A stretch of DNA of 64,000 nucleotides from contig NW_026262701.1 of NCBI RefSeq assembly GCF_021869535.1, positions 110,732,001 to 110,796,000 on the forward strand. Reading direction: 5' to 3'. The notes under the pieces are model-generated. The model made no database searches, was not told the origin of the DNA, and saw nothing but the letters and a program-made list of their open reading frames with translations. Source of the stretch: Mytilus californianus. Its lineage: Eukaryota. This document shows positions 4,245 through 55,400 of this stretch, piece after piece. Both the position numbers and the translations under genes were made by a program. How positions within the stretch are numbered: the first letter of the stretch is position 1; each line of letters opens with the position of its first letter.

Positions 4245-4486
4245 CTACAAATCTTCCTCTCCCCCTCCATACATATCTGCTAACTTAGAAAACTTTGGAC
4301 CCCAGTCTTCTAAATAGTTATAGTCTTGGTCTCCATCAGTAGATGTGTTTAGAGAACTAAGAGAACCAACATCAGTGTCCCCACCCTCGTAAGCAAACTC
4401 CATAACATTATCATGTGGAGGACCATCTTCATCTGCTTTGTCTAGTCTGTCATGAATAAAGTGCTCCACGCCCTCTCCATAAGGTC
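4245..4486 (-). CDS. CadN: Cadherin exon 35 (last coding): beta-catenin-binding domain and stop
   Basis: AG acceptor, phase 1; [13 protein letters not shown]...[19 protein letters not shown]. Confidence 0.95.
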
Positions 4487-25400: not shown

Positions 25401-28400
25401 GCCCTTAGGCCATCATCCCTTTATGACAATTCTTATCTTAACTTACCTATATCTTTATCAGTGGCCTGTACTCTGATTATGGATTTACTACTGTCTGGGG
25501 GTTGTTCAAATACATTTGTCTCATAAAGAGGCTTCTCAAACACTGGTGGGTTGTCATTCTTATCTCCAATTATAACCTGGACTTGAGCTTGGGCTGCAAA
25601 AAAATCGTAAACTTTTATTCTTGCTCCAAATGTAATAATTCACCGGGACAGGAATAGAGCCTAGTATCTATCTTCTCATGCATCCAATCTTTTTAAATTT
25701 TATACATCTGATTTGACTGAAATCTCTTGACCAAACATTTATCTTTCTTTAACCTAACTGAATTTATAACATCAGATTTTTAGCTTTGTTTTCTTCTCAC
25801 AAAACTTACCTCAGTGTAAATTTTTATCATCATTAAAGCAATAAAATGAAAGAAACAGGTCTATTTCTTCTTCACAATGTAACATTATAAAACAGTTCTT
25901 GAACTTCAATTATTGTGAATAAATGAGGCACAAACTTTTATGGATTTTGTTGGTTCATCAAAGCCCCAAATTGTCATATGAAACTAGTAACAAGAATACG
26001 TGTCCATAGGACACAATGCTCAGTAATATTGTAGGCAGGACATAAACATGTGAATAGCATTCAGAAATTCACACCCTGCTACCACATTTGTATAGAAATG
26101 ACAAAGTCCACTTTTTGTTCCGGAAAAGGATGTACTTAGGTGAGGTTTAGGAATTTTTTGTCAACTGTTCGGACTCCTTGGTTTTTTTCCTACAATACAT
26201 GGTAAAATATTTTGCCCCATAACACCCATTTTTCTTTTGATATAAAACTTCAATAGCTCATAAAAGGTCATTTACCAACATTTAAGCAGATTCTAGATTT
26301 CCTTTATTTTGATTTGAGACCCAAATAATACCAATGCAAATACAAGGTAAAAGTCCGAGTCAGCCTTTTCCCGCCATTTTTTTAAAATTAAATATCACGA
26401 AAAGGTGCTTCATAACCTATAAATATTTTTAGCTTATTTTGTTCCTTAACTAATGCTCTTCTGACTTATAGTACCAATTTTAAATTCTAGATTTTTTTAA
26501 TTTCACCTATTAAAGTACATCCTTAATAAAAGATCAATCTAAGATTTATATTCCTGGCTTGGATTAACCTTTAATCCATGACAACTGGTACCTTACAAAT
26601 CATTGTTCTTTAACAGGCCTTTGTCTTATATTTTTTAACCACTTACCACTATTAGGTGAATTAGGTGGTTCATGATATGGGATATCAGAGTTAATACCAT
26701 CTTTAGCCATTACAGTTATAAAGTAGACATTCTCTTCCTCTCTATCAAAAGTTGTATTTGTGGTAATTAGACCTGTCTGCTGGTCAATTCTGAACTTCAG
26801 ATAGGCATTATTCTTATCTGCTACCAAGCTATAGTATACCTAGTAAAATAAAATAAAATTTTAGATTTTATAAAGAAATAATATGTTTTCAATTCAAAAG
26901 TCACAAGTTAGAAAATGTACTTTATCATGAAAAAAATTTAATTTAAAAAAGTTTTCCTATGTCAAAATGACATTAACATCTTTGACAGTTTCCAATGAGT
27001 GTTTCATTCACTGAAATTATTCATTAATTCACATATTTTTTGCAAAGAAACAAAAATATGGTATTAAAAAATAGTTCTCAAAGAACTGAACAAGTATCTG
27101 TTATAATATTCAAATCAATACAATGGGAAATAACTCACCAGATTATTTGGAAGATCTGCATCAGCATCTACAGCTTTCACTGTAAACACTGACACACCAG
27201 AAGGTTCATTTTCTGGGACACTACCACGGAACAAGTTAGCAAGTTTGGGGTCAAGTCCTTCAAACTGTGGTACTTCATTATTCATGTCACGGACACTGAT
27301 AGTTACACGCATTTCCTGTGAAAGTGGTGTCAGGCCTTGATTCTGAAAAAGAAAATATCGGTTAAAAAGTTTCAAACTTGTTCCTAAAGCTTTTATACTT
27401 GATGAAGGTGACTGGTCAATTCAAAACATGTGTTGTGTGCACCTACATTTTTTTTTTTTTATCTATCATTAAATTTCAAACAAGAATTTGTCCATAGTAC
27501 ACGGATGCACCACTCGCACTATCATTTTCTATGTTCAGTGGACAGTGAAATTGGAATCAAAACTATAATTTGGCACTAAAATTAGAAAGATCATATCATA
27601 GGGAACATGTGTACTAAGTTTCAAGTTGATTGGACTTCAACTTCATCAAAAACTACTTTTTTTTTTTTACCAAAAACTTTAACCTGAATCGGGACAGACA
27701 GACGGACGGACGAACGAACGAACGAACGGACGCACAGACCGAATAACATAATACCCATAAATGGGGCATAAAAAGTAGAACTTGTTATCTATAAACTATC
27801 AAACTATACTGGACTGGAATTTATTTGAGTGTTACTTTTAATTTTTGATTGTTTTTGCCATATATTAATCTTCTGTCGTTTAATTGATTTCTCTAAATAG
27901 TCCTATCTAAATAACTTCTTCAATTTAATATAGACATTTCTTTAAACTTACAGTTACTCTGAGACGTAGTGTATAAGTATTGTTGATCTTGTAATTCAAT
28001 GGTCCATTTAGTCGTAAATACATGTAATTGTCCCTGCCTTCAACACGGAAGTTTCCTGCAGATTGCCTAGGTTGTCCATTGGAGTCGACTATTGCAAATG
28101 AAACTCCATCTAGTGGTGGTGGTACATTAGAAGAAGCATAAAATGTAGCTATTTTGTATCCCACTTGTTCTGTTTCATTTACATTAAAACTTTGACCATT
28201 ATAGTTGTCATCCCATGTTGGGGCAGGCTGATCACCTGTCGTAACATCAATGTTGACAAGTACTGTGCTGTGAAGTGGGGGAATTCCTTTGTCTTCTGTC
28301 TTTACTTGTAATCTTATTGAACTATCCAAAAACTGGAAAAGAAAACAGTCAACTATATTAGTGATTTCAATAAGTTTTGTTTTAACAGGATAAACATTAT

Positions 28401-31400
28401 TCCTGCAAAATATATGGATTTTCATACATACTATGTGGAACAGTTAATATTAACCAGGGGCTGCTGTTAATGAAATCCACGCTGTAGAGGTTTATTTGGT
28501 TTTTGACATACAAACATAAGTCTCCCTGTATGTGAAGCAATTCTGTCATGCTTGGCACTTTCCCTCACTAGTAGACGAATTTAAGTCTGAAATGGTCATT
28601 TCGATCTTTACATCATCTGAAAAGTCTGAACCATAAACTATTCAGTGATGTTAAGTCTTTGAGTCAATTTTCAGACTTATCTACTTCTGTTAATTCAGTA
28701 CTGTTCAGTAGCTTTTCAGACAATTCAGTATGATGTTGATGTATACAGGTAAATAAAAACTACTGAAAAGTTTTAACATAGAAGGAACATATTTTAATTT
28801 ACTTCAAGCTAATTATCTAAACAGTACTGAATTTACGGCAATGGAGAAGTTTAAAATTATACTGAAAGACTGAATAAATAATTGTTCAGTCTTTTAAGAG
28901 CTGTTCAGATCAAAATGGTTTACTAGTGCCTTCAATCCAATTTAAAACTTGGATTTTTTGTACTAATTCTTAATTTATTGACTGAAGAAATATTAAAAGC
29001 CATTTTTACTGTCCCTTTTGAAGTATGCAGAGATCACTAATCATTGTCTTCTAATAGCTTTCTTTAAGGTATGGGTCTGTCCATCATTTTAAAGTTGGAA
29101 AAATTACCTCTCCATAAGATAATATTCATTGTTATGTTCTGTGATCTTTGTTGGATTGCTGCCTCATTGGCAATCACATCACATTTCATTATTTTTATAC
29201 TTAATACTTACATCAGACAAACTCTTGGTGAGGAAGATTGTACCAGCATCAGGATCAATCCTGATTCTTATATCTACATTAAATACTTACATCAGACAAA
29301 CTCTTGGTGAGGAAGATTGTACCAGTATCAGGATCGATTCTAAACCTGTCTTCTGGGTTCTCTATAAGTGAGTATTGGACTTCAGCATTTGTACCCATAT
29401 CCTGATCTGTTGCTAATAATGATGTCACAACTTTGTTCACATCTAAACTTCGCACGATTGTTGGTGTGTAAACTGACGAATCAAACTTTGGTGGATTGTC
29501 ATTCAGATCGTCAATCGTGACCCAGAATGTACACAAACTATTTAACTTCCTGGTCTGTCCCTGATCCTCAGCCATGATGGTAAGAGGATAACCTCTCATG
29601 CCCTGTTCAGATTCCCGATCAAACATTACCCTGGATGTGACAGTACCATTGTCAGGATCTACATTGAAGCTCTGTGTCTTACCAGCTGGAGTTACAACAT
29701 GGTATTTTATTTTACCATTAAAACCTCTATCATCATCTTCTGCTTGTACCTGAAAATCAAATACAATGTATAACATATTTTACTTCAACCCATTAAGATC
29801 AAACTACTTTACTGCAAATACGTCATTTTATAAATACGAAATGTGTGGAGAATCGTCCATGAAACAGAAACCAATTGTTTGATATACTAATTACTTAATC
29901 TCAGCTTCTAGAGTTTTTGTGTTTGACTTATTATATAAGACACCTGTCTTCTGATGAAGACTGTGTGTGACCCATTAGATGTCACTTGGTTTTTTTTGTG
30001 TTGTTGGGTTGCTGTTTCATTGATAAAACCATAACTCATCTTATTCATACAAAAATCAAAAGGAAGAACTAGTAAACAGTAATGATATTGGTATTGTGGT
30101 TTGCATATGTAGAAATATCTTGTTGAGATCGGTTATCGAATTGGATGCACATCTTGTAATCAAGAATGTACACAAACTATCTAACCCTGATCTTAATAAG
30201 ATGAGACAATTTTCAGTCGGATAAATAAAAATCTTTTAAAATATAGATAAACAAGAATGTGCCCATAGTACATGGATGACCCACTCGCATTATTATTTTC
30301 TATGTACAGTGGACCATGAAATTGGGGTCAAAACTCTAATTTGGCATTAAAATTAGAAAGATCATATCATAGGGAACATGTGTACTAAGTTTCAAGTTGA
30401 TTGGACTTCAACTTCATCAAAAACTACCTTGACCAACAACTTTAACCTGAAGCGGGACAGACAAACGGACGGACGAACAGAAGGACGAACAAACGAATGG
30501 ACGGACGCACAGACCAAAAAACATAATGCCCATAAATGGGGCATAAAAAGCTTTTTTCTAACATTTTAATTGACTTTACATTAACTTTGACTATAAAGCT
30601 CTATCAAATTTTATAAGTAGATAAGCAAAGTTATAAACTGATATCATAATATGAAAACTGTAATGCACATGTAATTCTATTCCTTATTGTACATTTATTT
30701 AAACAAGAAATATCTATTATACCCTGACAACAAAGGTTCCAGGAGCCATATTTTCCATGATATGAGGAGCATAGCTACAACTAGGAAATCTTGGATTGTT
30801 GTTGTTGATATCCTTTATTTCTACCACAACATAGGAATCACTCCTAAGTTTAGGAAAACCTCCACAACAGCTACCATCATCATAAGCTGTGATATTTAAT
30901 GTGTATGAAGGGATATGAGCTGGTATTATGTTTGTTAATGTTATGAGACCAGATCTTGCATCAATTCTGAATGGTCCATTTGGTGCAACTGACAATTTAT
31001 CTAAAAGAGACAAAACATTTTTATAAAAAAAAATTATAATTGGTATTTTTGAAATATTTCTATATATTCCCAATGTATCTATTGTGATTTCTTCTGAATA
31101 TGCAGAATTAACAAATTACGAATACAGCAACTTTAATGACATACCCTTATGTTGGCAATATTGCTGATTATATTCAGTCGTCATGTCACATGACTACAAA
31201 GAACTTAGAATATAAATAATGAAATCATCTATCTTTTTCAACTACATGTATCATTTTGCTAAAGACCATCTTCTAGCCCTTTTTTTTTATGAATGAGTTA
31301 CCCCAGTTGACCCAAGGTCAACCAGCGAAAATGATATCATTGAACAATTGGTACTTACTGTGACGTTATAACATAAGTATTGTGACATTGGAATGTACAG

Positions 31401-34400
31401 GAAAGTGCAAGACTTTCAAAGCTTCTATATATGAGGCCCTTAAAATAATTCAGAACATCTTTAACGTTAGACTCTACTTTGTTGCTGGCAATAAATCCAT
31501 ACATCAAATGTGAATACAGGCTGTTTTCCTAACAAAATGAAAACATTGCTAAGTATGTCATACCTTAAACTCAAGAGACTTAAAGCTTACCTGTAAAGTA
31601 ATATTCCACATTATCACCATCTGGGTCGATTGCCTGTACAGTTTTGACATAGCTTCCAGCATTTTGGTCCTCACGTATAAAGGTATGAATATCCTCCTTA
31701 GTTTTACCAAACTCTGGGGGCTCATCATTAATATTTGTAACATATATGACAACATTGGCTAGACCTGATTTCTTAAATGGTCCAGCATCTGTGGCTGTTA
31801 CATTGAACTTGTACAAACGATCAGGTCGGAAGTCATAATCGAGTCTCCTAAAAACAAAAAGTTGGCATTATAAATCATGAAAAAGACAAAGTATTTTAAG
31901 GTAATCTTATTCAAGTTTCATTGAATTGAATATAAAAATTCAACTATTTGCATCCAAACTTAGAGTATACTTATAAATCTTGCTCACAAAGTGCAAAGTA
32001 TTTCATTTTTGTATGTATCAATCAAATATCCACATGCTTCATTTGAAAAAAATGAGATTCCTTAAAACCATTTCCCTAAAACATCCTAAAATTCTATATA
32101 AGAAATGGTACCTGATGATGGTGCCCTAGGCAACGAAACATGTCAATGAATAAAATGCAGCAATCACTCAAGTGTTGTCGTTATAAGACTTTTTACATCC
32201 TAAAATTTTCTATATAATTTGAACATAAACTAACTTTGCTACTTTGATATCTCCAATGTATCGTCCCCTCTTATCCTGTCTGGTAACCACATAGAAATGA
32301 TCATCACTAACAGAGTAGGTCAGTTTGGCATTGTCCCCGGAATCTCTGTCTGTGGCAGCCACTGTAGAAGAAAACAACATGTTAAAGTAAATAATCTGCT
32401 GTGTGTCCCTTATTACCTGAAAAGTGGTTTTCAGTCAAATTTCTGTACTGGCAACAAAAAGAGTAATTATTGTATTTTACCGATAATGGTGTATGCTTCT
32501 TTTGAGTTCTTATTTCTAAACTGGAATTCAACCAAACAGTGAGTGTTTAATTTTCATTATTAATCATTTTTTTCAGGTAATTTGGATGTATAATAATATA
32601 GTTGAATTATGCTCATATATTGTATCTCTTAAACTTGCATGTCCACAAACAAACAATGGTAACTTTAAAATTTTAATAAGTTCTTATTCAAAAACTGATT
32701 AAAGTTATTTGCAAATTGAATTTTTCAAAAGACCTTTCCTAATTTGTAGGATTTAATTTTTGTGGACTACTTTAAAAGCCTCATGCTGACAATTCTAACG
32801 ATGAGCAAACCCATTTTTTGGGGTAGGCATGGTGGATGGTCATTTTTTAGGGGGTAAAACTCAATATTGATTCCTTGATATAAAGCCCCTTGGATTGAAG
32901 ACAATAGTTTTTAGTTTTTATTAGTATGATTGTTTTTTAGCTATGATTTTTAATAGAGTAGAAATTGTTTTTTATTAATTGCACTTATATTTTTGCAAGT
33001 TTAATTTTATCGTTAATTTTCAATACAATTATGTTGAAATAAAGTTACATTTTCGTCTGCTAAGATCAGTTAAAGATAATAGTATTTTCCAAAGAATTTA
33101 TTACAGTGTAGAAAGTTAATTGTTAATCTTAACGGGATTCCTAAATTTTATGACACCTTCAGTAGGTCAGTCTAGTCAGTTAGAGTTCAAATAATAGTCG
33201 TCTGCAAATGCAGCTGTGGCGATTTAATTACTTTGTTTTGATCATTTCTGGGAATCAGGTTAAATTAGTGTGAAATTTTATGTCAAATGTTCAGACGTAA
33301 ACAGATCGTCTTTATCATGCGATAAGTTAACATCGAAAACAATGTTGTGAAATTGTAATGCGCAATGATTGTAAATATTGTAAATATTGGATTAAAACGT
33401 AGTTATTAGCAAACATTCGAGTTAGTTATATGTTATGGATATAATAATGCTATTGGTATAACATTATCGTCGAACTCCCAAATCCCAAATCGTCGAACTT
33501 TATATGAACAATTTATTCCACTGCACAATTCAAATCGTCTCCGCAACATTTTGGTAGCAGAGCGTGGTTCAATGAACTGTAATCGTAATCGTATTGTGAG
33601 AAAATGAGTAATTGGGATTTGGAAATAGAAGCAGAGGCAAGCGAAGGAGACAAAATGGACGAAACCGTAATTGCTAAACCGGACGAAAGTGTACGATTAG
33701 AAGATCTAAAGAAGGAAAAAGCGAAAGCAAAATCGACATTCACAAAAACTAGACATTCATTACTACAAATTCTTGAAGAAGATTTTCCGGATCGTGAAGA
33801 AATAAAAGTATTTCAAGAGAAACTGATAAATGCGGAAGAAAAAGCGATGGATATTATGGGGAATATTTGTGATGAATATAAGCACAGGAATGATATACTA
33901 AATATGAAGAAAACAACAAAAGAGATGGAAAAAATGGAAGAGGAATTTACGGACGCAGAAAATGAGTGTCGTGATTATTTGATCGAGAGTAAGGTTGGGT
34001 CAAGCGTTGGTTCTAGTGTATCGAGAATATCGAAACGGGCTAATGTGAATTCCGGAAATAAAGTGGAAAGTAAACCTATAAATAAAGAAAAGGAAGTTAA
34101 ACCAGAATTTGAACAAACTACGAAAGAAGAAAATAACGACAAGCAATTAAATGAAACGAAATTTAGTTCAGAATTAGGACAGGATATGTGGAAACAGTTG
34201 AAAAGAGTTTCAATACCGGTTTTCACAGGAAATAAAAGGAATTATCAGAGCTGGAAAGCTGCATTCTTAGCATGTATTGACCAAGCACCGGCAACAAAGG
34301 AATATAAATTATTACAACTGAGACAATATGTGGAAGGTGAAGCTTTGCAAGTTATAGAAAATTTAGGACATTCAGCAGTTGCTTACGATGCTGCAAAGGA

Positions 34401-37400
34401 GCGTTTAGAAAGAAAGTATGGAGGACAAAGAAGACAAATAACATTGTATATCGAAGAACTTGAAAACTTTAAACCTATGAGAGAAGGATTCGCTAAAGAC
34501 ATAGAAAATTTTGCAGATTTACTGGATATAGCAGTTGTGAACTTGAAAGAAGCAGGTCGTTTTGAGGAGTTAAAGAATGGTTCTTTATACAACAAATTGC
34601 AGCGAAAGATGACAGAATCTATGTTGTCGAGGTATCATCGTTGGATATTTGAAAGCGGAAAAATAGAGTCAGTTGAATGTCTACGTGAATGGATTTTACA
34701 GGAAGCAGAGTTTCAAACTATAGCATCAGAAACTATACACGGATTAAGTGCGAACACCAGCAGCAATTCACAGCGGAATTATAAAGGAAATCGTAGGGAT
34801 GGATTTAGAACATTTTTTGGAGAATCGCAAAATAAAGAGAACATCGGAAATAGGGAATCAATAAAACATTTGTGCAAGTGTTGTAACGGTCATCATGGAG
34901 TCTGGAGATGTAATGAATTTCGGAAATTAACCGTTCACAAGAGATGGGAAACCGCAAAACGACTTCAGTTGTGTTATCGTTGCTTAGGACATGATCACGT
35001 TGGCAGACAGTGTCCGAGAAGTAGAGCGTGTAACTTGGGTGGATGCAAAGAAGTGCATAACAGACTTTTACATAGGGATAAACAATCGTTCAGTGAGCCA
35101 AAGGTTCCAGTGAGAACCGAATCGAAAACAAAACAGAACTATGCTACTGAAAAGAAGGAAGATACAGCCGCCGCCACTGAGGGGGAGAGTCAGAATCGCA
35201 CAATGATCGGCCGAGACAGAAAATCAAACTTCGTTACGCTTAGAACAGTACCCGTAATATTGAAAAATGGAAACCGTACCGTAAGCGTTAATGCATTACT
35301 GGATGACGCAAGTACGAAAACGTATATCAACGCTGATGTTGCCGCTGAATTAGGACTTCAGGGACAAGTTCAGAAAGTGACAGTTAATGTGTTAAATGAC
35401 AATGTCGAAACATTTGAAACTATGCCAGTCGAGGTTAGACTTCAAAGTCATAATGGTCAAACAGACGCCAAGATAGTCGCATTCACTACTAACCGTGTAA
35501 CCGGAAGTTTACAACCAGTTGATTGGAAACAACACGCTCGGAAATGGGAGCATCTTGCAGGGATTAAATTTCCGAATCTAGGACAAAGACCTACCGTTGA
35601 TATGTTGATTGGGCTGGACTATCCGGATCTACATTATTCTTATAGAGATATACGTGGTAAACCTGGAGAACCAATTGCTAGACTAACACCGTTAGGTTGG
35701 ACGTGCATCGGAGATCCGAATAGCGGACAGGAGCAGACACTATTTAACCGAACGTATTTTGCTCGTGGACATGAGAATCGAAATGATTTAGATAACATTG
35801 TAAGGAAGTTTTGGGAAATCGAAAATGTCAAAACACCAAGCGATAACGTATTTCTAAATAGTGATGAGCGAAAGGCATTGTCTATTGTAGAGCAATCTTT
35901 GGAATTTAAGGACGGACACTACGAAGTTAAAGTACCGTGGAAAGACGACACACCATTGTTACCGAACAATTACAACATGGCTTTGCATAGATTAGAAAAC
36001 ACAGAAAAAAGATTAAAGAAAGACCCGAGTATTGCAAAAGATTACACACAAACCATAGAGAAATACATTAAAAAAGGATATGTTCGAAAAGTGTCGGCAA
36101 AGGAGGAGACCGTAGCAGGAAAATGGTATTTGCCGCATTTCCCGGTGATTAGACCGGACAAGGAAACTACTAAAACGAGGATTGTATTTGATGCGTCTGC
36201 AAAGTTTCAGGGGATTTCGCTAAATGACACTATTCATCAAGGACCAAAGTTACAACAGGATTTATTTGATGTACTATTACGCTTCAGAAAGAATCCAGTT
36301 GCACTTGTTTGTGACATAGCCGAAATGTATTTGAGAATTAAAATTGCACCAGACGACAGACCGTTTCACAGATTTTTATGGCGTGCAATGAAAACTGAAC
36401 ATGTACCAGAGGAATATGAATTCAATAGTGTTGTTTTTGGAGTAAATTCGTCTCCATTTCAAGCTCAGTTTGTTTCTAGAAAACATGCCGAAATGACGAA
36501 AGATTCATATCCGCGAGCCGCCGAAACAGTTCTCAAATCTACATACATGGACGACAGTATGGACTCTGTAATCAACGATGAACAAGGCATCGAACTTTAT
36601 AATCAGCTATCACAGTTATGGGAAAAAGCAGGAATGTATGCACGAAAATGGCTTTCAAATTCAAAGGCAGTTTTGCAATGTATTCCAGAAGAAGATCGTG
36701 CGTCACAAGTCGATCTCGATGAGGGATATTTACCGTCCGTGAAAACTCTAGGAGTTATATGGCAGGCAGACAATGACATATTCACATTTAAAGCGAACCC
36801 ACCGGCAGATGATTTCAAATTTACTAAACGAAACATTCTAAGCAAAGTTGCTACGTTATTCGACCCGTTGGGATTTATTGCGCCGTACACAATAAGAGGA
36901 AAACTACTACTACAAGAGATGTGGACAGCAGGACTAGACTGGGACGACCAGTTAGACGAAATACTTGTTGAGAAATCAAGAGAGTGGTTCCGTGAACTTG
37001 ATGAACTATGTTGTATTAAAATACCGAGATGTTTGCAGTTAGACGATGACATTGTTTCAACGAGTCTTCACACATTCAGCGACGCTTCTCAGGAGGCTTA
37101 TGGTTCAGTGATATATGCTAGACACGAGTATAAGAGTGGCACGATATCTACGAGATTAATAGCAGCGAAATCGAGAGTTGCTCCGTTAACTTCAGTTAGC
37201 ATTCCACGACTTGAGTTGATGGCTGCAGTTTTGGGTTTAAGATTAGCACTTTCAGTTAAACACGCATTAGAAGTACCTGAGGATAACATGACATTCTGGT
37301 CAGACAGTATGAACGTTTTGTATTGGATAAGAGGTAGGAGTAGAGAGTACAAGCCGTTTGTAGCGAATCGAATCGGAGAAATTCACACTTCATCGCACCC

Positions 37401-40400
37401 TAAACAATGGCGACATGTGCCAACAAAGGTTAACCCAGCAGATTTAGTATCTAGAGGTAGGAAAATTGAACAATTACAGTCGGACGTAATTTGGTGGAAT
37501 GGACCGGAATTTCTTCAAGAAAAGGAACCGCAATGGCCGGAAACTAACATTCACATAGAAAACGTACGTGATACCGAACTTAAGTGTAAAAAGAAAACAA
37601 GCGATAAATTAACTAACTGTACTACACTGAAAAGTATTCACACTAGTGATTCAGATTGGCGTTTAGATCCCGTACGTTATTCAAGTTTTGTAAGACTAGT
37701 TCGTGTACATGCGTATGTATACAGATTTATTGACAATTGCAGACTAAAGCAAGAACAACGTCGTCAAGGAAGTTTATCTACCGTCGAATATGCAGATGCC
37801 GAACTGGAAATAATTAAAAATGCACAAAGGGAGGCATTTTCAGACGAATATAACGCTCTAATAAAAAGTAAAGATTTACCGAAAACTAGCAAATTATTAG
37901 GATTACAACCGCGAATTGATGAAAATGGATTAATCAGATGTGATGGACGTTTAGAGTACGCCGATTTTCTATCATTCGATGCTCGGTATCCGATTATATT
38001 ACCACGAAAACATTGGGTCACGAAGCTTATTGTGAAACGCTATCATGAACTTGGTAAACATGTTAGTGGGACAAATCAAATATTTTCAGCATTATCGTCA
38101 CGCTTTTGGATTATTTCAGGGAGAGAAGAAATAAGAGAATATGAACATGAGTGTTTTACGTGCCGTAAGAGGAAAGCTAAAGTTGCCGAGCAAGTTATGG
38201 CTCCGTTACCGGAAATTCGTTTCAAAACACCGTTACATGCTTTCGCTCGTACTGCAGTTGATTTTGGAGGTCCGTTCATAACAGTTCAGGGGAGAGGAAA
38301 ACGACGTCAGAAAAGATACTTATGTCTATTTACATGTTTAGCGTCACGCGCAGTGCATTTGGAAGTAGCATTTGGATTAGATACGGACTCATTTCTTAAC
38401 GCATTTTATCGGATGGTGAATAGGAGAGGTCTTCCTAAAGAGATAATTTCAGACAATGGAACTAATTTTGTTGGAGCAAATAGAGAACTGAAAGAACTAG
38501 TTGCGCTTTTAGACAATGATAAAATACAGAATTCAATAAGTAACCAAGGGATTAAGTGGCATTTTAATCCACCGCTTGCACCGCATTTTGGTGGTATTCA
38601 CGAAACAATGATAAAATCCGCAAAAAGGGCTATTTATGCAATATTAGGAAATGCAGATATTAATGATGAAGAACTTTTAACAGCATTTACCGGAGCTGAA
38701 GCGCTGATCAATTCGAGACCGCTTACGTACCAGTCAGCCGATCCGAAAGATGATACACCTTTAACACCAAATCACTTCTTACACGGACAATTAGGTGGTC
38801 ATTTCGCTCCAGAATCAGTTGATATTACTGATTTTAACCCGAGAAAACGCTGGAGAAGAATACAGGAATTAATTAGACATTTCTGGAAACGTTGGATTAG
38901 AGAATGGTTGCCGGGACTAAACAAACGTGACAAGTGGACTAAAACGAAAAGGGACATGAAAACCGATGATATTGTGCTTGTCATGAACCCGAACGTTCCG
39001 AGAGGACATTGGCCGCTTGGCAGAATAATCGAAGTTTTCCCCGGAAAAGATGGACATGTTCGAGTTGCAAAAGTTTCACTTGGACAAACTGTATTAATAA
39101 GACCGATAACAAAACTGTGTCCGTTAAACATCGAAACCTCCGAAAATGACAGTGATAAATAATTGAAGTAATGTGGACATATAGTTTCATTTTAATCTAG
39201 ACAGTTAAATATTTTGAAATAGTTTTAGATTTGATAATTTGAACTTAGATCAGAGACAGTTTTATATCGTTTAATAATTGTTTTGTTTGATTAGCTTAGA
39301 GCAATCAAGAGGGGGAGAATGGATTGAAGACAATAGTTTTTAGTTTTTATTAGTATGATTGTTTTTTAGCTATGATTTTTAATAGAGTAGAAATTGTTTT
39401 TTATTAATTGCACTTATATTTTTGCAAGTTTAATTTTATCGTTAATTTTCAATACAATTATGTTGAAATAAAGTTACATTTTCGTCTGCTAAGATCAGTT
39501 AAAGATAATAGTATTTTCCAAAGAATTTATTACAGTGTAGAAAGTTAATTGTTAATCTTAACGGGATTCCTAAATTTTATGACACCTTCAGTAGGTCAGT
39601 CTAGTCAGTTAGAGTTCAAATAATAGTCGTCTGCAAATGCAGCTGTGGCGATTTAATTACTTTGTTTTGATCATTTCTGGGAATCAGGTTAAATTAGTGT
39701 GAAATTTTATGTCAAATGTTCAGACGTAAACAGATCGTCTTTATCATGCGATAAGTTAACATCGAAAACAATGTTGTGAAATTGTAATGCGCAATGATTG
39801 TAAATATTGTAAATATTGGATTAAAACGTAGTTATTAGCAAACATTCGAGTTAGTTATATGTTATGGATATAATAATGCTATTGGTATAACATTATCGTC
39901 GAACTCCCAAATCCCAAATCGTCGAACTTTATATGAACAATTTATTCCACTGCACAATTCAAATCGTCTCCGCAACACCCCTGAATCTAGTAATCTAGTT
40001 CAAATTAATTGATGCATCATTACAGACTCAATTTACCATACATTATATGCTTTCTCATAGAACTGATGTGTTTACATAACTACTAAAAGAGTAAAGGTGT
40101 TCCAAAACAGGACACCTCTCAGGCTCTGACTCAATTGTTAATAAATGAATATACCACCAAGAATGTAATTTATATATTTAGAATGTAATCTAAATCATTT
40201 ATGACCTTACCAGAAAACAATGTGGTGTTGACAGGTGTCCCTTCCGAGGTGGTATTTGTATAGGTTGATAGTTCAAAGGTCGGGTCATTGTCATTAACAT
40301 CTATCAAATTGACTCTCAGCTGAAATCAGATACCATATATATATTAGATCATTTTGCATAAATGTATATAGGTACTTTTAAAGAGCATATCCTTACTACA

Positions 40401-43400
40401 TTGATGAAAACTAACATTTCAGTATTTTGAATTGATGGATATCACTAAAAAAGGGAAATTTTATGCTAACTCATTAATATGAAGTGTTCCAGCTTGAATC
40501 TCAGGGCAGAAGGGAGCTAGTTGTCTGAAAGAGCACTTTAGCGTTATAACCCAGATTTTAAGGGCAATGTTGGACAGTGTATAAATTACCTTGAATATTG
40601 CTAGGCTCAGCTGGAGAACATTAGTTGTATTTAAACCATATTCAGAAATTAATGTGTTCTTGATGTTGGTTCCAGTAAGAATTTTTTTTATCAAATTATC
40701 ATACCATGAAGCAAAGCATATCATTTTGATGTTAATCTAAACAAACTTGTACATTTGGTAAGGAAAATAATCATCAGAAATTTCAATGTTTTATAACTTA
40801 TACCAAAATAAACAAGTAGCTTTGAAAGATGGAGTTATACATGCAAAATTGAAGTTTTAATGTAATTAAATTATCTACATTTAAATTACTTGTTCAAACA
40901 TATAGTATATATGTTATTGAGAGTTATTTATTATCATCTGAATTGTTACAAAAAAGTATTTTTAAGTGCACACCAAAGTGCTCCTCAGTAAGGAGTTTTA
41001 TAAATATAACAGGTGAGACAGGAGATGATCATTCTTTTACTTTGGAGGGCAGAAGGGCGGGGTAAGGGCACCTAGGGCAGGCCGCCCTTCTATTTAGGGC
41101 AGGCGGGAACACTGATATGGGTATTCTTCTTTAGTGTAAATAACTATTGGTTTTTTCTGAAGTTGGCCATGGAAATCAAATTTTTATGGAAGTTATTTTA
41201 TTGTTAAAATGTACCAAACAGCAATAAATTATGAAAAGAACATGACAAGTGAGGTAAAATATAAGTACTTCACATTTCACATTTTGATTGTACTCTATTT
41301 ATTTTAGCAGTGCTATATTTCACTGTTGTTAGGCCTTATCAGTTTACATCTATATATACAATAATCATCAGATTTGATGTTTCACAGGTAAAACAAAACT
41401 ACTACTATCAGAAATTGTAAAGTTTCTAATTGCCAATTAGTTGTCTTAATGACTTCTGTCATATTTTTTTCTCTCACTTGACTTTCTACAGCTAATAAGC
41501 CTTAGACAACTTTAAAGCCATCTGTTTGATTATTTCTGAAATTTGGGTTTAAAATTTTTAATCTGTAAAAATTGAAATCCTCTCTAAGCTCAGCAAATTA
41601 AAACAAACTGCAAAAACATAGATGTTTACCATTAATCTTGGAATGTTTTTAATTGAATAGGTGTAACAAATGCCTTGCAGTTTGTCTTATATGCTATAGT
41701 GTGTACTACTTAAAAGGTCATGACTCAAACAAGCCTTGCAAGAAGGGGGAATCTTTCCCTAGGATGTCTAAGATTTTCCTGTCTTGCACTTTTTAAGTTG
41801 TTATCCTTTATATATCAACTGAAAATGTATTGACGTCCCTTGACCTTGTATATCTATATATGCCTTTTAAACCTACCTATGTGGTATGGGTTTTACTCCT
41901 AGTTGAAGGACGTACTGTGACCTGTAGTTGCTAACTACTTCATTTGTTCTCTGGTGGAGAGTTGTCTCTTGGGCAATCATACAACATCTACTTATTTTTA
42001 TACTGATGAACTGCGAAAACTTCCCCCAATTTCCCTGACATTTTATATTCAGAAGATACTTATCTTAGCCATACCCCGATTTAACTATCTTACAATACCT
42101 GTGTGGTACTCTGTAGTCCTGTTGATTCTTCTACAGCCCTGAGAGTGAGGACAAACTGATGTGCCGTGGAAGCCTCGTAGTCCATACTCTGTAAAGTAGC
42201 TACCTCTCCATCATCACTCATAGTAAATAATGTTGATGTTTGACTCCTCTCATCTAACAGTGAAAATTTAATGGTGCCATCATAATCTGTATTTTCATCT
42301 GGAGTTTTGGATTGGAATGGTTTGGCTTTGATGCTTAAAGGGCTGCCATCATCATTTGTCAGTCTATCAAAAAGGTTCAAAAACATTATTGTCAAGTTAT
42401 GAAATTCTTACTTTACAAAGATACAAATACATTTACATGGTTTTAAAACTCCTAGCATACTGTCATACAAGAGACAGTACCAAAAGTCAAGAAATTGTTT
42501 ATGTAATTTAGGTCCTTTTCCAAATTGAGACAACCAAATATAGAGTACAAACTAATGTTTTAATGACTTTGAAATGTTGTCAAAATAAAACAATATATAT
42601 TGAGTGAAAGCTTTCTTTGTTAGTGATGCAACAGCTCACATTCAATCAGTGTTATCCTTAGTAACTAAATGTTCTTGGTGAAAAAATTCATACTGCTAAG
42701 ATAAATGTACAATGATTTATACAATTGGTACAAATTTGGACCTATAAGCCAGTTTTCTTCACAAGGCCTATCAAGAAAAAAACATTATGTTTACTTTCAA
42801 TTTTTTAAGGTAACAGATGAATATACAGTTACTGCAATACTATATTTTGTCAAGGAATTATATATAACTTAAATATCAATGTTTCTGTCATATGAGACAG
42901 TTTTTTGCATGTGTATGTAGGTGTAATTATACATCATATGTCATCCAATGTGAAAATACACTTTCAGAAATATGTAAATGAGTTTTATAAAGCAATAATT
43001 CTGATATACTATTGATTATTTACAATTTGCTCATAAATTAGCTAACCACAACCTGAATTGTCTATATGTAACTTACTGCTTTCCAGGTGTAAAAAACATA
43101 AGTAAAATAGCCAGCCAAATGTATTAAATGAACCCTCAAGCAAAACACTGATGAGTAGAAGGGATGTGTGTATCCCAAGATACTACAATAATGTAAATTT
43201 TATTACTAGACAGGTTTTGGAATGGGTAACTGGCTGATCGTATTCATGCCAGCTTCATAATTCTGATAATCCAATATTTGAATATTTATTTTGACCATTT
43301 TGAAACCTTTGAACCACACTGATTGTCTTACCTTGTTCCGATAAGAGGGTCATTCCACTATCAAAAGGCCAAGTCCTTTGAACTTATGAAAGAGTGACTG

Positions 43401-46400: not shown

Positions 46401-49400
46401 CTTTACGAATAGTTTGGCAGAAATTACACAAGAATGTAAGATAACATCTTTTAAAATCAGTTCAATGAATTTACTACAGAAAAACTTATCTGATAAAAAA
46501 TTTCTAAAAATATTTATTTCACTTACTTTTCCATTTTTTGACAAGTGATCTGATAAAAAGAAACAACTGTCGAGGTGGAGTAGACTAATGTTTTATTTAA
46601 TGACATAAACCCATCAAGGATAAATAAATATATAGAAAGGCAATTTTTTAGGATAAATAAATATATAGTAAGGCAATTTTTTAGTCTATCAAAACCATCT
46701 TAAATTTTTTTAGACTTTATGAGAATTTTCATATCATGAGTTTCATAAACATGAAAATTTAAGTCTAGTCTTGTATTTGCTTTTATAAACACATTTCCTA
46801 TTTTTCTCTTTTTAATTTCCATTAGCTAACATCACATTGTTTTATGAAAACACATGTTGAAATTAATGTAGTAACATGTCTATGACAAATGAAAATCTGA
46901 GATGCAATTAACTTAAACAAATTATCTTGTTGCAATATATGCAACAGAACAAAGGCAACTCGTAACTTCATTAAATATGAATAATAATGGGGAGTAACAT
47001 TTTTTTCATTCTACAATTTCATTTCATTGTGTGTACCAGACTGAAACCCATTAACATTTTTATAAATTTGACCCCAGGGAGTACCTTAAATAGATGGTTT
47101 TCTCCAATAAATTCTGTAAAAAATCAATATTGCTTAGTCTTAGAACATCCTATTCTTTCTCGTTTTTATTGTAAATATTCTAAAAATATTGTAAGAAAAT
47201 ATGTTCAATCATATAATGATCTCTATATGATTACTGGATTATAAAAACACTCATAGAAGTTGTAAGGCATGTTTTGTCTGATTAATAACATACTAAAAAC
47301 CTGGTGTCTATACTCAATTAGTCATAATAACAAAAAAATGTATAAAATGACCTAATGGTATTGATATCAAGACTTTGTAATGAAAAGAAAATATACAAAA
47401 GGCAGAATCTTGTTTGTTCTGTATAAAACCTCATCATAAACCTCATCTTATATAAAGGTCTGGGAATTAAAGGATTAAACAGTAGATTAAGTACTTCATT
47501 ACCACATCATGCACATAAGAGTTTCAACCTGTACAAATGTATATCTAATGTGTACAAATGTATATCTAATGTGTAAATGTTAACAATGTGTACAAATGTA
47601 TATCTAATGTGTAAATGTTAACAATGTGTACAAATGTATATCTAATGTGTAAATGTTGATAGTAATTCTTGTCCAGATTTCCACCAACTCATTGTAAAAA
47701 TTAATGGGGAATGTGTCCATGGGACACAGATGATGCCCCCGCTTGTCTATCATATAAAGTTATAAAGGGACATAACTGAAAAACGGTAAAAGTGACGCTA
47801 CCAAAACTTGTACTTGATCTGAGTTTTGTGGGAATAACAATTGTGTATAAGTTTCATAACATTTGGTTGAGGCAAACTTAAGTTAGATAAGGGAAACAAA
47901 AAATTCAGCAATTTTTCCATTTGTAAAGGGGCATAACTCTAGAATAATAAGAGTAACACCCCCAAAAAACAAACTTGATCTGTATTTAGTAGTTATAACA
48001 ATTGTGTATAAGTTTCATAACATTTGGTTGAGGCTAACTTAAGTTAGAGAACGGAAACGAAAAATTTAGAAATTTTTCCACTTGTAAAGGGGCATAACTC
48101 TAGAACTTTTAAGTGACACCACCAAAATTCCGACTTGATCTGTATTTTGTGGTATTAAGCATTCTGTATAAGATTCATAGCATTTGGTTGAGGCAAACTT
48201 AAGTTAATAGAACGGAAACGAAAAATTCTGCAATTTTTCAATTTGTAAAGGGGGATAACTCTAGAACGGTTAAAGTGATGCCACCAAAATTCAAACTTGA
48301 TCTGTATTTTGTGGTAATAAGCATTGTGTATAAGTTTCATAACATTTGGTTGAGGCAATCTAAAGTTAGAGAACGGAAACCAACTTCGGGACGTACGGAC
48401 GGACAAGGGTAAAACTTAATGCCCCCTCCGCTATGGTGGGGGCATAAAAATTCTATATGTACTTGTATTTTATAGCAGAAACCTTTATATTTACTGTAAC
48501 TGGTTTATGTTCCAAAAAATACCTTACAGCTAAACTTTATCATAAGTATACTAAGTTGTTCATGACTAACAGGTAATTTTTGTTGCAAAATTTTAATGAA
48601 ATGAAGGCCTGGGCTCATTTTATTTTATTTAATATAAAAGTAAAAGTTAAAGATTTTTCCTTTCACAATGGAGACTTCTAATATAAACTGGTCTACATGG
48701 ACCAAGTTAATTCTCTTTGCTCTGACATCATATGATGTGTACTAGTAGTTAATATAAAACCACCTGATTTTGGAAAATGTAAACTACATAATGTACATGC
48801 TGGTTACATAACAACAAAAACTCTGTTTAAACTCCTACTCAGTTTTTGTAGAACAGTTCTCTGATGATCAGGAATTAATTCTATATATCACACAGTAGAC
48901 TGACACAATAAACTCATCTTATGATCCTAAAATATCTTGCATGCACTTCACTGGCAGATGTTTTAACAGTCAATAGGTAAACCCTAAATAATATCTACAT
49001 CAACAGAAAATATACCAATCAGTTGTGCATCTTGTACTTTATATCTGCACATCATTTGTCTTTTATGTTATGAATACATTGATTTGTTTACAAATTATTT
49101 ATTTATATATTTATATATGTTTGTGTGTATCCTCATCACTGCTATTATAAATCATTAGTTTTATTATCTTCTACCATGTCTACATTTTATCTTTTGTCTT
49201 ATTTACCCACATCTGTAACTTTTGTCTAATCAGCTGAACCCAAGATAATATTCTTATAGGAAAAAAAGGGACTTTAAAAAATTTTGCAGCTACATGTAAC
49301 ACATGTATACACTTAGTGGTGGATTTTAAAATTCCTGAGGGATTCAGTTAACCCAGTAGGTCTTGCCTGCCCTCATTGTTGTCATACATTTTAAGAATTT

Positions 49401-52400: not shown

Positions 52401-55400
52401 CCATGAAGACAATACTGTAGTAATGATACATCCAAAGAAAAAATTTGATAAGCACAAATTTTATCGGAATTGTTTTTTTTTGCACATCCTTATTTTTTTT
52501 TACAATTCTTTCATTTATTTCGATGCAAATTTACTTTAATTTCCAAGTTGATAACAAATTTGGTTGAATCCATGCTTTACACCATACCATTTTTTCTTAA
52601 AAGGAAATAATGAGAGCTATCATTAATGATTTGGTTTCTTTGGACAGCAGACTTTCCAATAGCACACTAATTAATTTTGACATGGCAATGCACACAAAGA
52701 AAATTCTTCTACAGACTCAATATCATTAAACACTTGATTGACAAAATATTTGAATATTCTATTTGGCATGGACAGACAGTCATAATGTATGAGATTATAA
52801 ATTTGGAAACTTAATTAACATGGGATTAATTAATAATGTATGAAGCCTGGTCATCACTCAGAACTTCAAAAATCAATTCTGTGTATAGTTTTAACCTCTT
52901 CACTATTTGAGTGTAATTACCTCAAAAAGTGGTCCGAATATGTAAATTCTGTAACCTTCAATTTACAATATAAGCTTACATACACTTGATATTATGTAAA
53001 TTTGTGTAACAATATTTTCAATTGCACATTTTAAGAGGCCCACTGTTGAAATTTCAAATACTGTAAATTCAGAAATTATTGCGATGTTTTTATGATGCAA
53101 AAAATGCAACAACATCAGTTTCGCAATCATAAAAACTTGCATTTATAATTTCAGTAGTGATTTTGCCTCATACAATTCTTGCAATCGCATTAGTTACATT
53201 TCACATTTTTGCCAGTGGTAAAGGATTCGCAATAATAAATGCATGCATTATTTTCTGAATGAACAGTAACAAAAGTTTTATGAATGAAGTCATTTTAAAC
53301 AGAGAATGTTTAATACATCAAAATTACAAAAAATAAAGATAAACCTCAGCAATTTCTTTTTGTGATACAAGCATCTAACTATATCTTGTTTTATCATTAA
53401 ACGTAAGGGAAGTATTCAATATTAACCTGCATGAAAATTGATGAAGAATTACAATGTAACAAGAATTTGTTAATATTTTGTCTGAGACGAATATATTTTT
53501 CAAATATAGCATGAAATACATTGAAAGATGAGCACAGATTTTGAAAATATTTTTAAGGAAAAAAAAATATAACATGGACAATGGTGAACCACAAACTGAA
53601 AACATATATGTCTGTAATTTATCCATTTAATACAATTTCAGTAAGACCTAATTTGATATTTCTCCCAAATAAAACACTTCAGACCTTATATGTACATGAT
53701 GTATCAGGGAAGAATCTCCCCCTTGTGAAATGTAAATCAAACTAATTAAATGGATGTCAAAGACAGTGTGAAATTTAACACCATATGACAAAGATGACAT
53801 GGCCCCCTGGACAGCTTTATGGCCTTTCAATTGTCCATATTTGGTAAAATGACCAATAAAATTGTATTGATTTCTCTGGACACAATTAAATTAAGAAAGT
53901 TACAAATCAGATTTGACAGTCTTAACTCCTTCCCTGAAAGAGGAAGACATAAACAGGGATAATTATCTATCTCCATATTACAATGTATCTACACATTATT
54001 ATTGGATCAGAATTTCGGTGAAAGCTACCATTACAAATTTAATCACTACCAAATCAAATTCCTGATCAAGGATTATGGACCACTATTATTGTAAACATGG
54101 TCCAATGAGCTTCAGGAAGCAACAAATAAAGTCAATTACTGGTAATAGCAGTGAACTGTCTCCGACCCTAATTACACGCTTTAATGAATGATTTATTGGG
54201 TCCACTGGACCATCTTTATCTTCTTTACATTACATAGAAAAAAGATTTCTCTAATGTTCTTATAAACTGATCCATCACTTCAAATACTCATTTACCAAAA
54301 AAATCCTCTTTTCTTAAGCTTTATTCAAATGGTACAAGATGCACGATTCCATCTAAGAATATTTCAAATGAAACCAGTAGGGATGGAGTTCTTCAAATTG
54401 ACCTTTCAACTTTTAATTTTACATTTCAATGAACAAAGTGTGAAATCTGATAAGCTTCATTAAAACTAATATGGACATCAGATCTTTTTATAAATTTCAT
54501 TGTAGACAATTCAAGGAACTTACTACTTTTATGATATTTTATGACCTGAAGAAAAGAATAAAATCTTTAGAATTATGACACATTTATGATGTGTGACAAT
54601 GTTATGTTAAGCTGACCAATAGTGTCCTAACATAAATATGCTACCATTTATTTTCTCCTTTATAGTGGAGAAATAAACACTGACAATAACAATAAAAGCT
54701 TGCTGGCAGACAACACATCAAACATGTCTGATTACCAGGTGTACCAGTAAGTTGTAATAAAATCATGTTATTTTCAAACCCTACATATACTTGCTTGTTT
54801 CTTTATGCTTACATTTTGATAAAAACAAAATACTCAGAAGGACCATAAAGCATCCTACATGTATTTAAAATTTGGTTTGGACAACAAAAGTTTAAAATGA
54901 CTATTTTGGCAAAATTTGTTCCTTTGGTAAGTATTAGATACACCTATGAGTGCATTAACCGAATAAGGTGTATCTTATTAACACCAAGATATTATATATG
55001 GTTTATGCAAAATGATAGTTTTCAATAATAGGAGGATCTTTCAGAGATTTGGATTTGACCGTATGTTATTCAAAAGCATGATAAATGCAGGGTATCTAAT
55101 TTCATTAAACATGAAATAAATCGGGAATGTGTCCATGGGACACAGATGATGCCCCCGCTTGCATATAACATTATAAAGGGTAAAACTCAAGAACTGTAAA
55201 AGTGAAGCCACAAAAATTCAAACTTGAACTGTGTTTGTGGTAATAAGCATTGTGTATAAGTTTCATAACATTTGGTTGAGGCAAACTAAAGTTAGAGAAC
55301 AGTAACAAATATTTCAGGAATTTTTCCATTTGTAAAGGGGCACAACTCTAGAACGGTAAAAGTGACGCCACCAAAATTCAAACTTGAACTGTGTTTGTGA

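What the first reader, a model, noticed from the sequence alone, without database searches (positions are those of the whole stretch)
32886..39982. Intact, apparently brand-new BEL/Pao retrotransposon inside a neural-cadherin intron
Seen: the LTRs show no difference over 658 bp by eye, the TSD is perfect, PBS and PPT are intact and the 5.6-kb ORF has no stop or frameshift. CpGs are abundant compared with the CpG-poor flanking introns. Removing the element leaves a 757-bp intron, so the insertion enlarged it about tenfold between two exons of one EC repeat, antisense to the host. Inference: a replication-competent element, probably polymorphic or private to this individual. Bivalve LTR elements of another family (Steamer, Ty3/Gypsy) are known to amplify in transmissible neoplasia and to move horizontally, so activity and origin deserve a test.
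Basis: partly seen in the sequence, partly recalled or inferred. Interest (0 to 1): 0.7.

Follow-up and report, generated by a model that had tools for sequence, protein, structure and literature searches.

The report
Young BEL/Pao retrotransposon in cadherin intron
An undamaged 7-kb jumping gene of a well-known kind sits backwards inside an intron of a cadherin gene; the site is empty in other sequenced samples, so the insertion is likely recent and the family likely still mobile, which is ordinary biology rather than a new system.

Summary
The anatomy is confirmed. The element is 7,087 bp (32891-39977), with LTRs identical at 658 of 658 bases, a CCCCT target duplication and one open 1,852-aa Gag-Pol with BEL/Pao domains. 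It lies antisense in a classical-cadherin intron that grows from 757 to 7,849 bp. The insertion is real and polymorphic: 3 of 3 DNA-type runs show the exact empty site, and an LTR collapse is unlikely. It is not singular. At least 16 copies carry the LTR-primer junction, 6 keep the whole reading frame (dN/dS 0.10-0.17), another also has identical LTRs, and the copies are recombinant mosaics. 'Brand-new' is only bounded (likely under about 0.2-0.5 Myr, borrowed rate). CpG richness is a family trait, not a clock. Three other organisms carry the family at 97-99.7%, about as close as host DNA, so horizontal transfer is not needed. No link to neoplasia was found, and transcription is barely shown. 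Two details stand out: priming by initiator tRNA-Met, where the ICTV profile names Arg/Gly, and one run whose empty allele matches the window's flanks over 1,790 bp. Three look-ups found no earlier scan note on it. Verdict: new member of a known kind, modest interest.

The parts
32886..32890 (.). Left target-site duplication CCCCT
   Evidence: present once in the empty allele of runs X1, X2, X8 (joint 32885->39978, 5 letters fit either side)
32891..33548 (+). 5' LTR, 658 bp, TG...CA
   Evidence: identical to the 3' LTR at 658 of 658 bases
33552..33569 (+). Primer-binding site, 18 nt, complementary to the 3' end (15 gene-encoded nt + CCA) of an initiator-type tRNA-Met(CAT)
   Evidence: initiator hallmarks judged from established knowledge
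33604..39162 (+). Single gag-pol ORF, 1,852 aa: DUF1759 Gag (207-345), three Cys/His knuckles (424-490), protease (D567), RT (D904, YMDD 981), RNase H (Peptidase_A17 region 1074-1235), integrase H2C2 and D1553/D1617/E1667, DUF5641 (1748-1841); no env
   Evidence: Pfam; motifs; only 157 bp between the stop and the 3' LTR
39307..39319 (+). Polypurine tract
   Evidence: same position in 12 of 12 other copies, one with a change
39320..39977 (+). 3' LTR, 658 bp
39978..39982 (.). Right target-site duplication CCCCT
40211..40319 (-). Host cadherin exon upstream of the interrupted intron (donor 228 bp from the element)
32250..32361 (-). Host cadherin exon downstream of the intron (acceptor 524 bp from the element; far end not mapped)
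4266..4436 (-). Host gene's classical-cadherin cytoplasmic tail exon (PF01049), one of 2 matches in G000

Best explanation
This is an intact BEL/Pao (Belpaoviridae-type) LTR retrotransposon that is absent from the same intron in other samples, and it likely arrived recently by ordinary copy-and-paste from a family that is likely still mobile. Inferred steps: a family RNA was packaged in Gag particles, primed by initiator tRNA-Met at the PBS and by the PPT, and copied with template switches between co-packaged family RNAs, which made this copy a mosaic with two identical LTRs. Integrase then joined it with a 5-bp staggered cut into the cadherin intron. It likely persists as a low-frequency allele because it lies antisense and leaves both splice sites intact. 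Such copies later decay or shrink to solo LTRs, as seen elsewhere in this genome.
For: Shown: full anatomy and catalytic motifs. The empty allele with a single CCCCT appears in 3 of 3 DNA-type runs of organism A (X1 may be the source and is not counted as independent, which leaves 2 studies). Of 12 other two-LTR copies, 10 have their own 5-bp TSD, 1 a 6-bp TSD and 1 none. Six places in G000 keep the whole frame, with pN/pS 0.10-0.17 in 15 of 15 pairs. LTR-pair differences run from 0 to 29, and 9 of 13 are at 4 or fewer. Four-gamete incompatibility is 11% under 50 bp and 52-54% over 200 bp (permutation p 0.002), and identity tracts of 1.4-1.75 kb switch between copies. 4 of 7 single-LTR loci are clear solo LTRs with TSDs. 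Recombination during transposition is known for Onsen (PMC5668417, abstract).
Against: No identical donor is in the assembly: the nearest copy differs at 46 of 7,087 sites, though a donor may lie on the unassembled homologue or be a recombinant. The filled junction was seen only in the assembly; tables showed only part of the pieces. Transcription is thin: about 35 reads (my estimate from bin depths) in 6% of one RNA run, about two thirds element-sense, and any family member could be their source. Gene conversion between integrated copies could also produce the mosaics. No effect on the cadherin transcript was measured.
Confidence: 0.85

Rival explanations
1. The insertion arose de novo in the sequenced animal (somatic or mosaic) or in a parent's germ line, so it is a private event caught in the act.
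For: A contig of run X1 crosses the empty site with 0 differences from the window over 1,790 bp, while X2 and X8 differ by 1.2-2.7% plus indels there. The filled haplotype is therefore much younger than ordinary allelic divergence (upper bound 0.17%). The LTRs are identical.
Against: There is no identical donor in G000, and 6 sites are private to this copy among 13. A shared young haplotype in another animal explains X1 equally well. Contigs drop rare alleles and cannot give allele fractions.
Confidence: 0.15
2. The family recently entered by horizontal transfer, or is amplified in a transmissible-neoplasia lineage, like Steamer.
For: Organisms B and C hold pieces 98.6-99.7% identical. Relatives at 55-67% span corals, sea cucumber, nemertean, sponge and molluscs on a poorly resolved tree, which would fit ancient transfers.
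Against: In organism D the element (97-97.5%) is about as diverged as host DNA (94-97%). B's pieces are as close as A's own copies, which differ by 0.65-2.7%. Decayed copies down to about 80% lie in G000, so the family is long resident. No protein outside is above 82%. Element-to-flank depth is only about 11-18 in three runs (rough).
Confidence: 0.06
3. Assembly artefact: collapsed LTRs or a misplaced repeat.
For: The filled junction was not seen in the listed pieces of any run.
Against: Both LTRs share 5 letters carried by only 3-6 of 28 other LTR loci, so they were not pulled to the family majority. The TSD equals the single-copy empty-site sequence exactly. The flank is single-copy in G000.
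Confidence: 0.03

Closest known systems
Belpaoviridae / BEL-Pao LTR retrotransposons (ICTV profile PMC8742986, whole text read)
   Same: Length 7.1 kb (range 4.2-10), LTR 0.66 kb (range 0.2-1.2), one continuous gag-pol, order PR-RT-RH-IN, 18-nt PBS, PPT of about 10 nt, no env.
   Different: The PBS matches initiator tRNA-Met, whereas the profile names tRNA-Arg or tRNA-Gly. The profile's host range does not list molluscs, though later papers do.
Mollusc BEL/Pao clades Sparrow, Sinbad, Surcouf (Sailor lineage), Tas, Suzu (PMC6238403, passages read)
   Same: BEL/Pao are the second commonest LTR superfamily in molluscs, and Sailor makes up over two thirds of them.
   Different: The clade was not assigned here because no reference sequences were held. 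That survey found only six LTRharvest copies of any LTR element in the fragmented M. galloprovincialis draft, and its main text does not mention PBS or tRNA.
Steamer (Ty3/Gypsy) of Mya arenaria and Mytilus chilensis (PMC11046912, 10.1101/2022.08.07.503107; search listings only)
   Same: A young, intact LTR element in a bivalve-like host.
   Different: Different superfamily. No amplification, neoplasia link or recent cross-taxon transfer was found here.
Onsen/COPIA78 intra-family recombination (PMC5668417, abstract read)
   Same: New insertions are mosaics of several family members.
   Different: That is a plant Copia element shown by experiment. Here mosaicism is inferred from standing copies only.

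Membership tests
BEL/Pao (Belpaoviridae) | LTRs of 0.2-1.2 kb, genome 4.2-10 kb, TG...CA ends with a short TSD | tested here: met
   658-bp LTRs, 7,087 bp, 5-bp TSD
BEL/Pao (Belpaoviridae) | Gag-Pol with order PR-RT-RH-IN and BEL/Pao-specific domains (DUF1759, Peptidase_A17, DUF5641) | tested here: met
   Pfam (PF05380 E 1.5e-52, PF18701, PF03564 above cut-off); motifs; all 120 listed homologues carry PF05380
BEL/Pao (Belpaoviridae) | Three Cys/His knuckles in Gag (feature recalled) | tested here: met
   aa 424, 457, 476
BEL/Pao (Belpaoviridae) | 18-nt PBS and PPT | tested here: met
BEL/Pao (Belpaoviridae) | PBS for tRNA-Arg or tRNA-Gly (as described in the ICTV profile; descriptive, not a demarcation rule) | tested here: not met
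   The PBS matches an initiator-type tRNA-Met; 16 places in G000 share the LTR-PBS motif
BEL/Pao (Belpaoviridae) | RT phylogeny inside the family against other Ortervirales | tested here: inconclusive
   The tree held only BEL/Pao-type homologues with no outgroup, and the careful search was unfinished
Sailor lineage (Sparrow/Sinbad/Surcouf) | RT/RNase H tree placement with clade references | not testable with these tools
   No reference sequences were held; supplements of PMC6238403 were not opened
Steamer-like (Ty3/Gypsy) | Gypsy-type Pol and amplification in neoplastic cells | tested here: not met
   BEL/Pao domains; modest depth ratios
Autonomous, currently active element | Full-length RNA, cDNA intermediates, new insertions | tested here: inconclusive
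   Sparse RNA reads; polymorphic site; purifying selection

The most novel reading that the evidence does not exclude
The insertion happened in the sequenced animal or its parent, as a fresh recombinant of several family RNAs. It would be a de novo BEL/Pao jump, primed by initiator tRNA-Met, into one of only two classical cadherin genes, and so direct evidence that this superfamily is transposing today in a bivalve, with a ready-made allele for testing effects on cadherin splicing.
Probability: 0.15. Interest if true: 0.55.

Novelty: new member of a known kind. Interest (0 to 1): 0.3.

Why it matters
It documents a small, recombining, selection-maintained BEL/Pao family with polymorphic insertions in genes of a bivalve-like genome. 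Such insertions are a proposed source of mollusc hemizygosity (10.1101/2020.09.15.298695, passages read). The filled and empty alleles give a clean marker for population genotyping and for testing the effect of a 7-kb antisense intronic insertion. Initiator-Met priming widens the primer range given in the ICTV profile. None of this is a new mechanism.

Tried and rejected
(1) Run X7 ('RNA?') as proof of expression: rejected. Its repeat-to-element depth ratio lies within that of the DNA runs, so it may be shallow DNA. Its contigs ending at LTR positions 421 and 450 looked like an R region, but they overlap by exactly 30 bases, which is a graph artefact. (2) The X14 contig running 3' internal-LTR-5' internal was not taken as a one-LTR circle, because graph collapse gives the same shape. 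(3) The empty or filled state in organisms B, C and D could not be read, because the flanks next to the site did not lay and only 15 of 116 joints were shown. (4) The indel counts from the multiple alignment were faulty (shared gap columns) and were replaced by pairwise counts. (5) CpG richness as an age marker: rejected. (6) Naming the host orthologue failed: one search covered only proteins up to 2,000 aa, and the Atlas gave no answer. (7) No bivalve mutation rate was found, so dates use the rice default quoted in PMC8220671. (8) Host-sense AATAAA density in the element (1.55/kb) is near the window's (1.16/kb) and says little. (9) Papers on Met-primed BEL/Pao: none surfaced. These searches are narrow, so this is not proof of novelty.

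Full report
Observation. The element runs from 32891 to 39977 (7,087 bp, plus strand). Its LTRs are identical at 658 of 658 bases, begin TGGA and end AACA, and are flanked by CCCCT on both sides. A TGG-initiated PBS starts 3 nt after the 5' LTR and a 13-nt purine run precedes the 3' LTR. One ORF, 33604-39162, encodes 1,852 aa without a stop. Pfam gives DUF1759, Asp_protease_2 (weak), Peptidase_A17, Integrase_H2C2, rve (below cut-off) and DUF5641. Three Gag knuckles, the protease Asp, RT D/YMDD, four RNase H motifs, the integrase H2C2 and D/D/E are present. Only 157 bp lie between the stop and the 3' LTR, so there is no env. CpG o/e is 1.21 against 0.26-0.34 around it and 0.39 in host exons.

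Host gene. Minus-strand exons encode many cadherin repeats, then EGF, LamG, a membrane segment and a PF01049 tail at 4266-4436. This is a classical cadherin of the long invertebrate type, one of 2 PF01049 matches in G000. The name 'neural cadherin' fits the architecture by established knowledge, but no orthologue was retrieved. The element sits antisense in a phase-1 intron, 32362-40210, inside one EC repeat. It is 228 bp from the donor and 524 bp from the acceptor, both intact; the intron is 7,849 bp with it and 757 bp without. The genome is 1.65 Gb in 175 contigs. An earlier scan note calls it a mussel (e1-9336355); I did not test that.

Real and polymorphic. The flank is single-copy in G000. 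In 3 of 3 DNA-type runs of organism A a contig joins 32885 to 39978, skipping the element and one TSD. X1 may be the source and is not counted as independent, which leaves 2 studies. The insertion is thus not fixed. The filled junction was not among the listed pieces of any run, but contigs can drop such links and only part of the pieces was shown. A collapse is unlikely: both LTRs share 5 letters found in only 3-6 of 28 other LTR loci, and the TSD equals the empty-site sequence. X1's contig matches the window's flanks with 0 differences over 1,790 bp, whereas X2 and X8 differ by 1.2-2.7% plus indels. The insertion therefore lies on a haplotype within 0.17% of an empty one (95% bound). This fits a young shared haplotype or a de novo event; the data cannot separate them.

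Family. The LTR query gave 41 matches from 40 of 108 candidates scored, and 16 places carry the LTR-PBS motif. I compared 12 other two-LTR copies and 3 further copies. Six places, the window's included, keep the whole frame (150 of 675 candidates scored); the others carry frameshifts or stops. LTR-pair differences are 0, 0, 0 plus one gap, 1, 2, 2, 2, 4, 4, 10, 11, 22 and 29, so 9 of 13 copies are young and this one is not unique. Ten of 12 have their own 5-bp TSD, one a 6-bp TSD, and one has a damaged end. Among the 6 open frames, pN/pS is 0.10-0.17 in all 15 pairs, as expected when lineages pass through repeated replication. No copy is an identical donor; the nearest differs at 46 sites. The copies are mosaics: among 146 informative sites in 10 copies, four-gamete incompatibility is 11% within 50 bp and 52-54% beyond 200 bp (p 0.002), and the window's copy is identical to L036 over 1,750 bp and to L032 over a different 1,462 bp. 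Template switching, shown for Onsen (PMC5668417, abstract), is the likely cause; gene conversion is not excluded. Four of 7 single-LTR loci are clear solo LTRs with TSDs. All 13 copies have CpG o/e 1.19-1.26, so CpG richness does not date this copy.

Age. Zero of 658 bounds LTR divergence at 0.46%. With the rice default of 1.3e-8 per year quoted in PMC8220671 (passages read) that is under about 175,000 years, or about 0.5 Myr at a threefold lower rate; no bivalve rate was found. 'Brand-new' is therefore possible but not shown.

Primer. The 18-nt PBS is complementary to CCA plus the last 15 nt of a tRNA-Met(CAT) gene in G000 that has initiator hallmarks. The ICTV profile gives tRNA-Arg or tRNA-Gly for the family (PMC8742986, whole text). 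Three searches surfaced no paper on Met-primed BEL/Pao, and the main texts of PMC3118150 and PMC6238403 do not mention PBS. Supplements were not opened and may bear on this.

Expression. In 6% of RNA run X24, depth over the element is 0-1.7, about two thirds element-sense judged by the host exon's strand; any family member could be the source. Run X7 is not usable as RNA evidence.

Origin. Organisms B and C hold pieces of the family at 98.6-99.7%, and D at 97-97.5% with further pieces at 86-92%. D's host DNA is 94-97% and B's 97% identical. A's own 10 youngest copies differ by up to 2.9%, and decayed copies down to about 80% lie in G000. Vertical descent or hybridisation suffices. The best outside protein is 82% over RT-RH (unnamed), then 69%, then oyster at 67%, among 7,965 candidates scored. 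Element-to-flank depth is roughly 11-18 in three runs, with no sign of Steamer-like amplification.

Verdict. A genuine, young, polymorphic insertion of a small, recombining and probably mobile BEL/Pao family. BEL/Pao elements are well known in molluscs (PMC6238403 and PMC10294476, passages read), and identical-LTR elements are common in such surveys (50 in PMC8220671). Three look-ups found no earlier scan note on this element. New member of a known kind; interest 0.3.

Noticed in passing
window 40477-41114: A 638-bp very high-copy insertion in the next intron is also polymorphic: a joint 40476->41115 with 5 shared letters appears in X1, X2 and X8. It resembles a non-autonomous DNA transposon.
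   Followed up: partly
L031 (G000:C121, 317 kb before the window's copy, minus strand): The nearest relative of the element (46 differences) lies on the same contig, also has identical LTRs, and has a 6-bp rather than 5-bp TSD.
   Followed up: partly
L044-L048: Only a few, partly degenerate initiator-type tRNA-Met copies were found in G000; the best one starts with T instead of A. The working genes may be collapsed or skipped as common words.
   Followed up: partly
G000:C154:37815164-37815343: The second, stronger PF01049 match: the genome's other classical cadherin.
   Followed up: no
window 9282-9898, 47698-48477, 55114-55875; 27478-27775, 30249-30550: Dispersed elements with internal 160-bp tandem units and conserved ends, and a very high-copy short repeat with GACG/GACA runs, in the cadherin introns.
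   Followed up: no
L053: One older family copy has its 3' LTR split by a ~270-bp insertion.
   Followed up: no
P0011, P0017, P0090: RT-RH-IN relatives from a coral (65%), a sea cucumber (62%) and a sponge (57%) are as close as or closer than those of clams (57-60%), a hint of old cross-phylum transfer in this clade; the tree is unresolved.
   Followed up: partly
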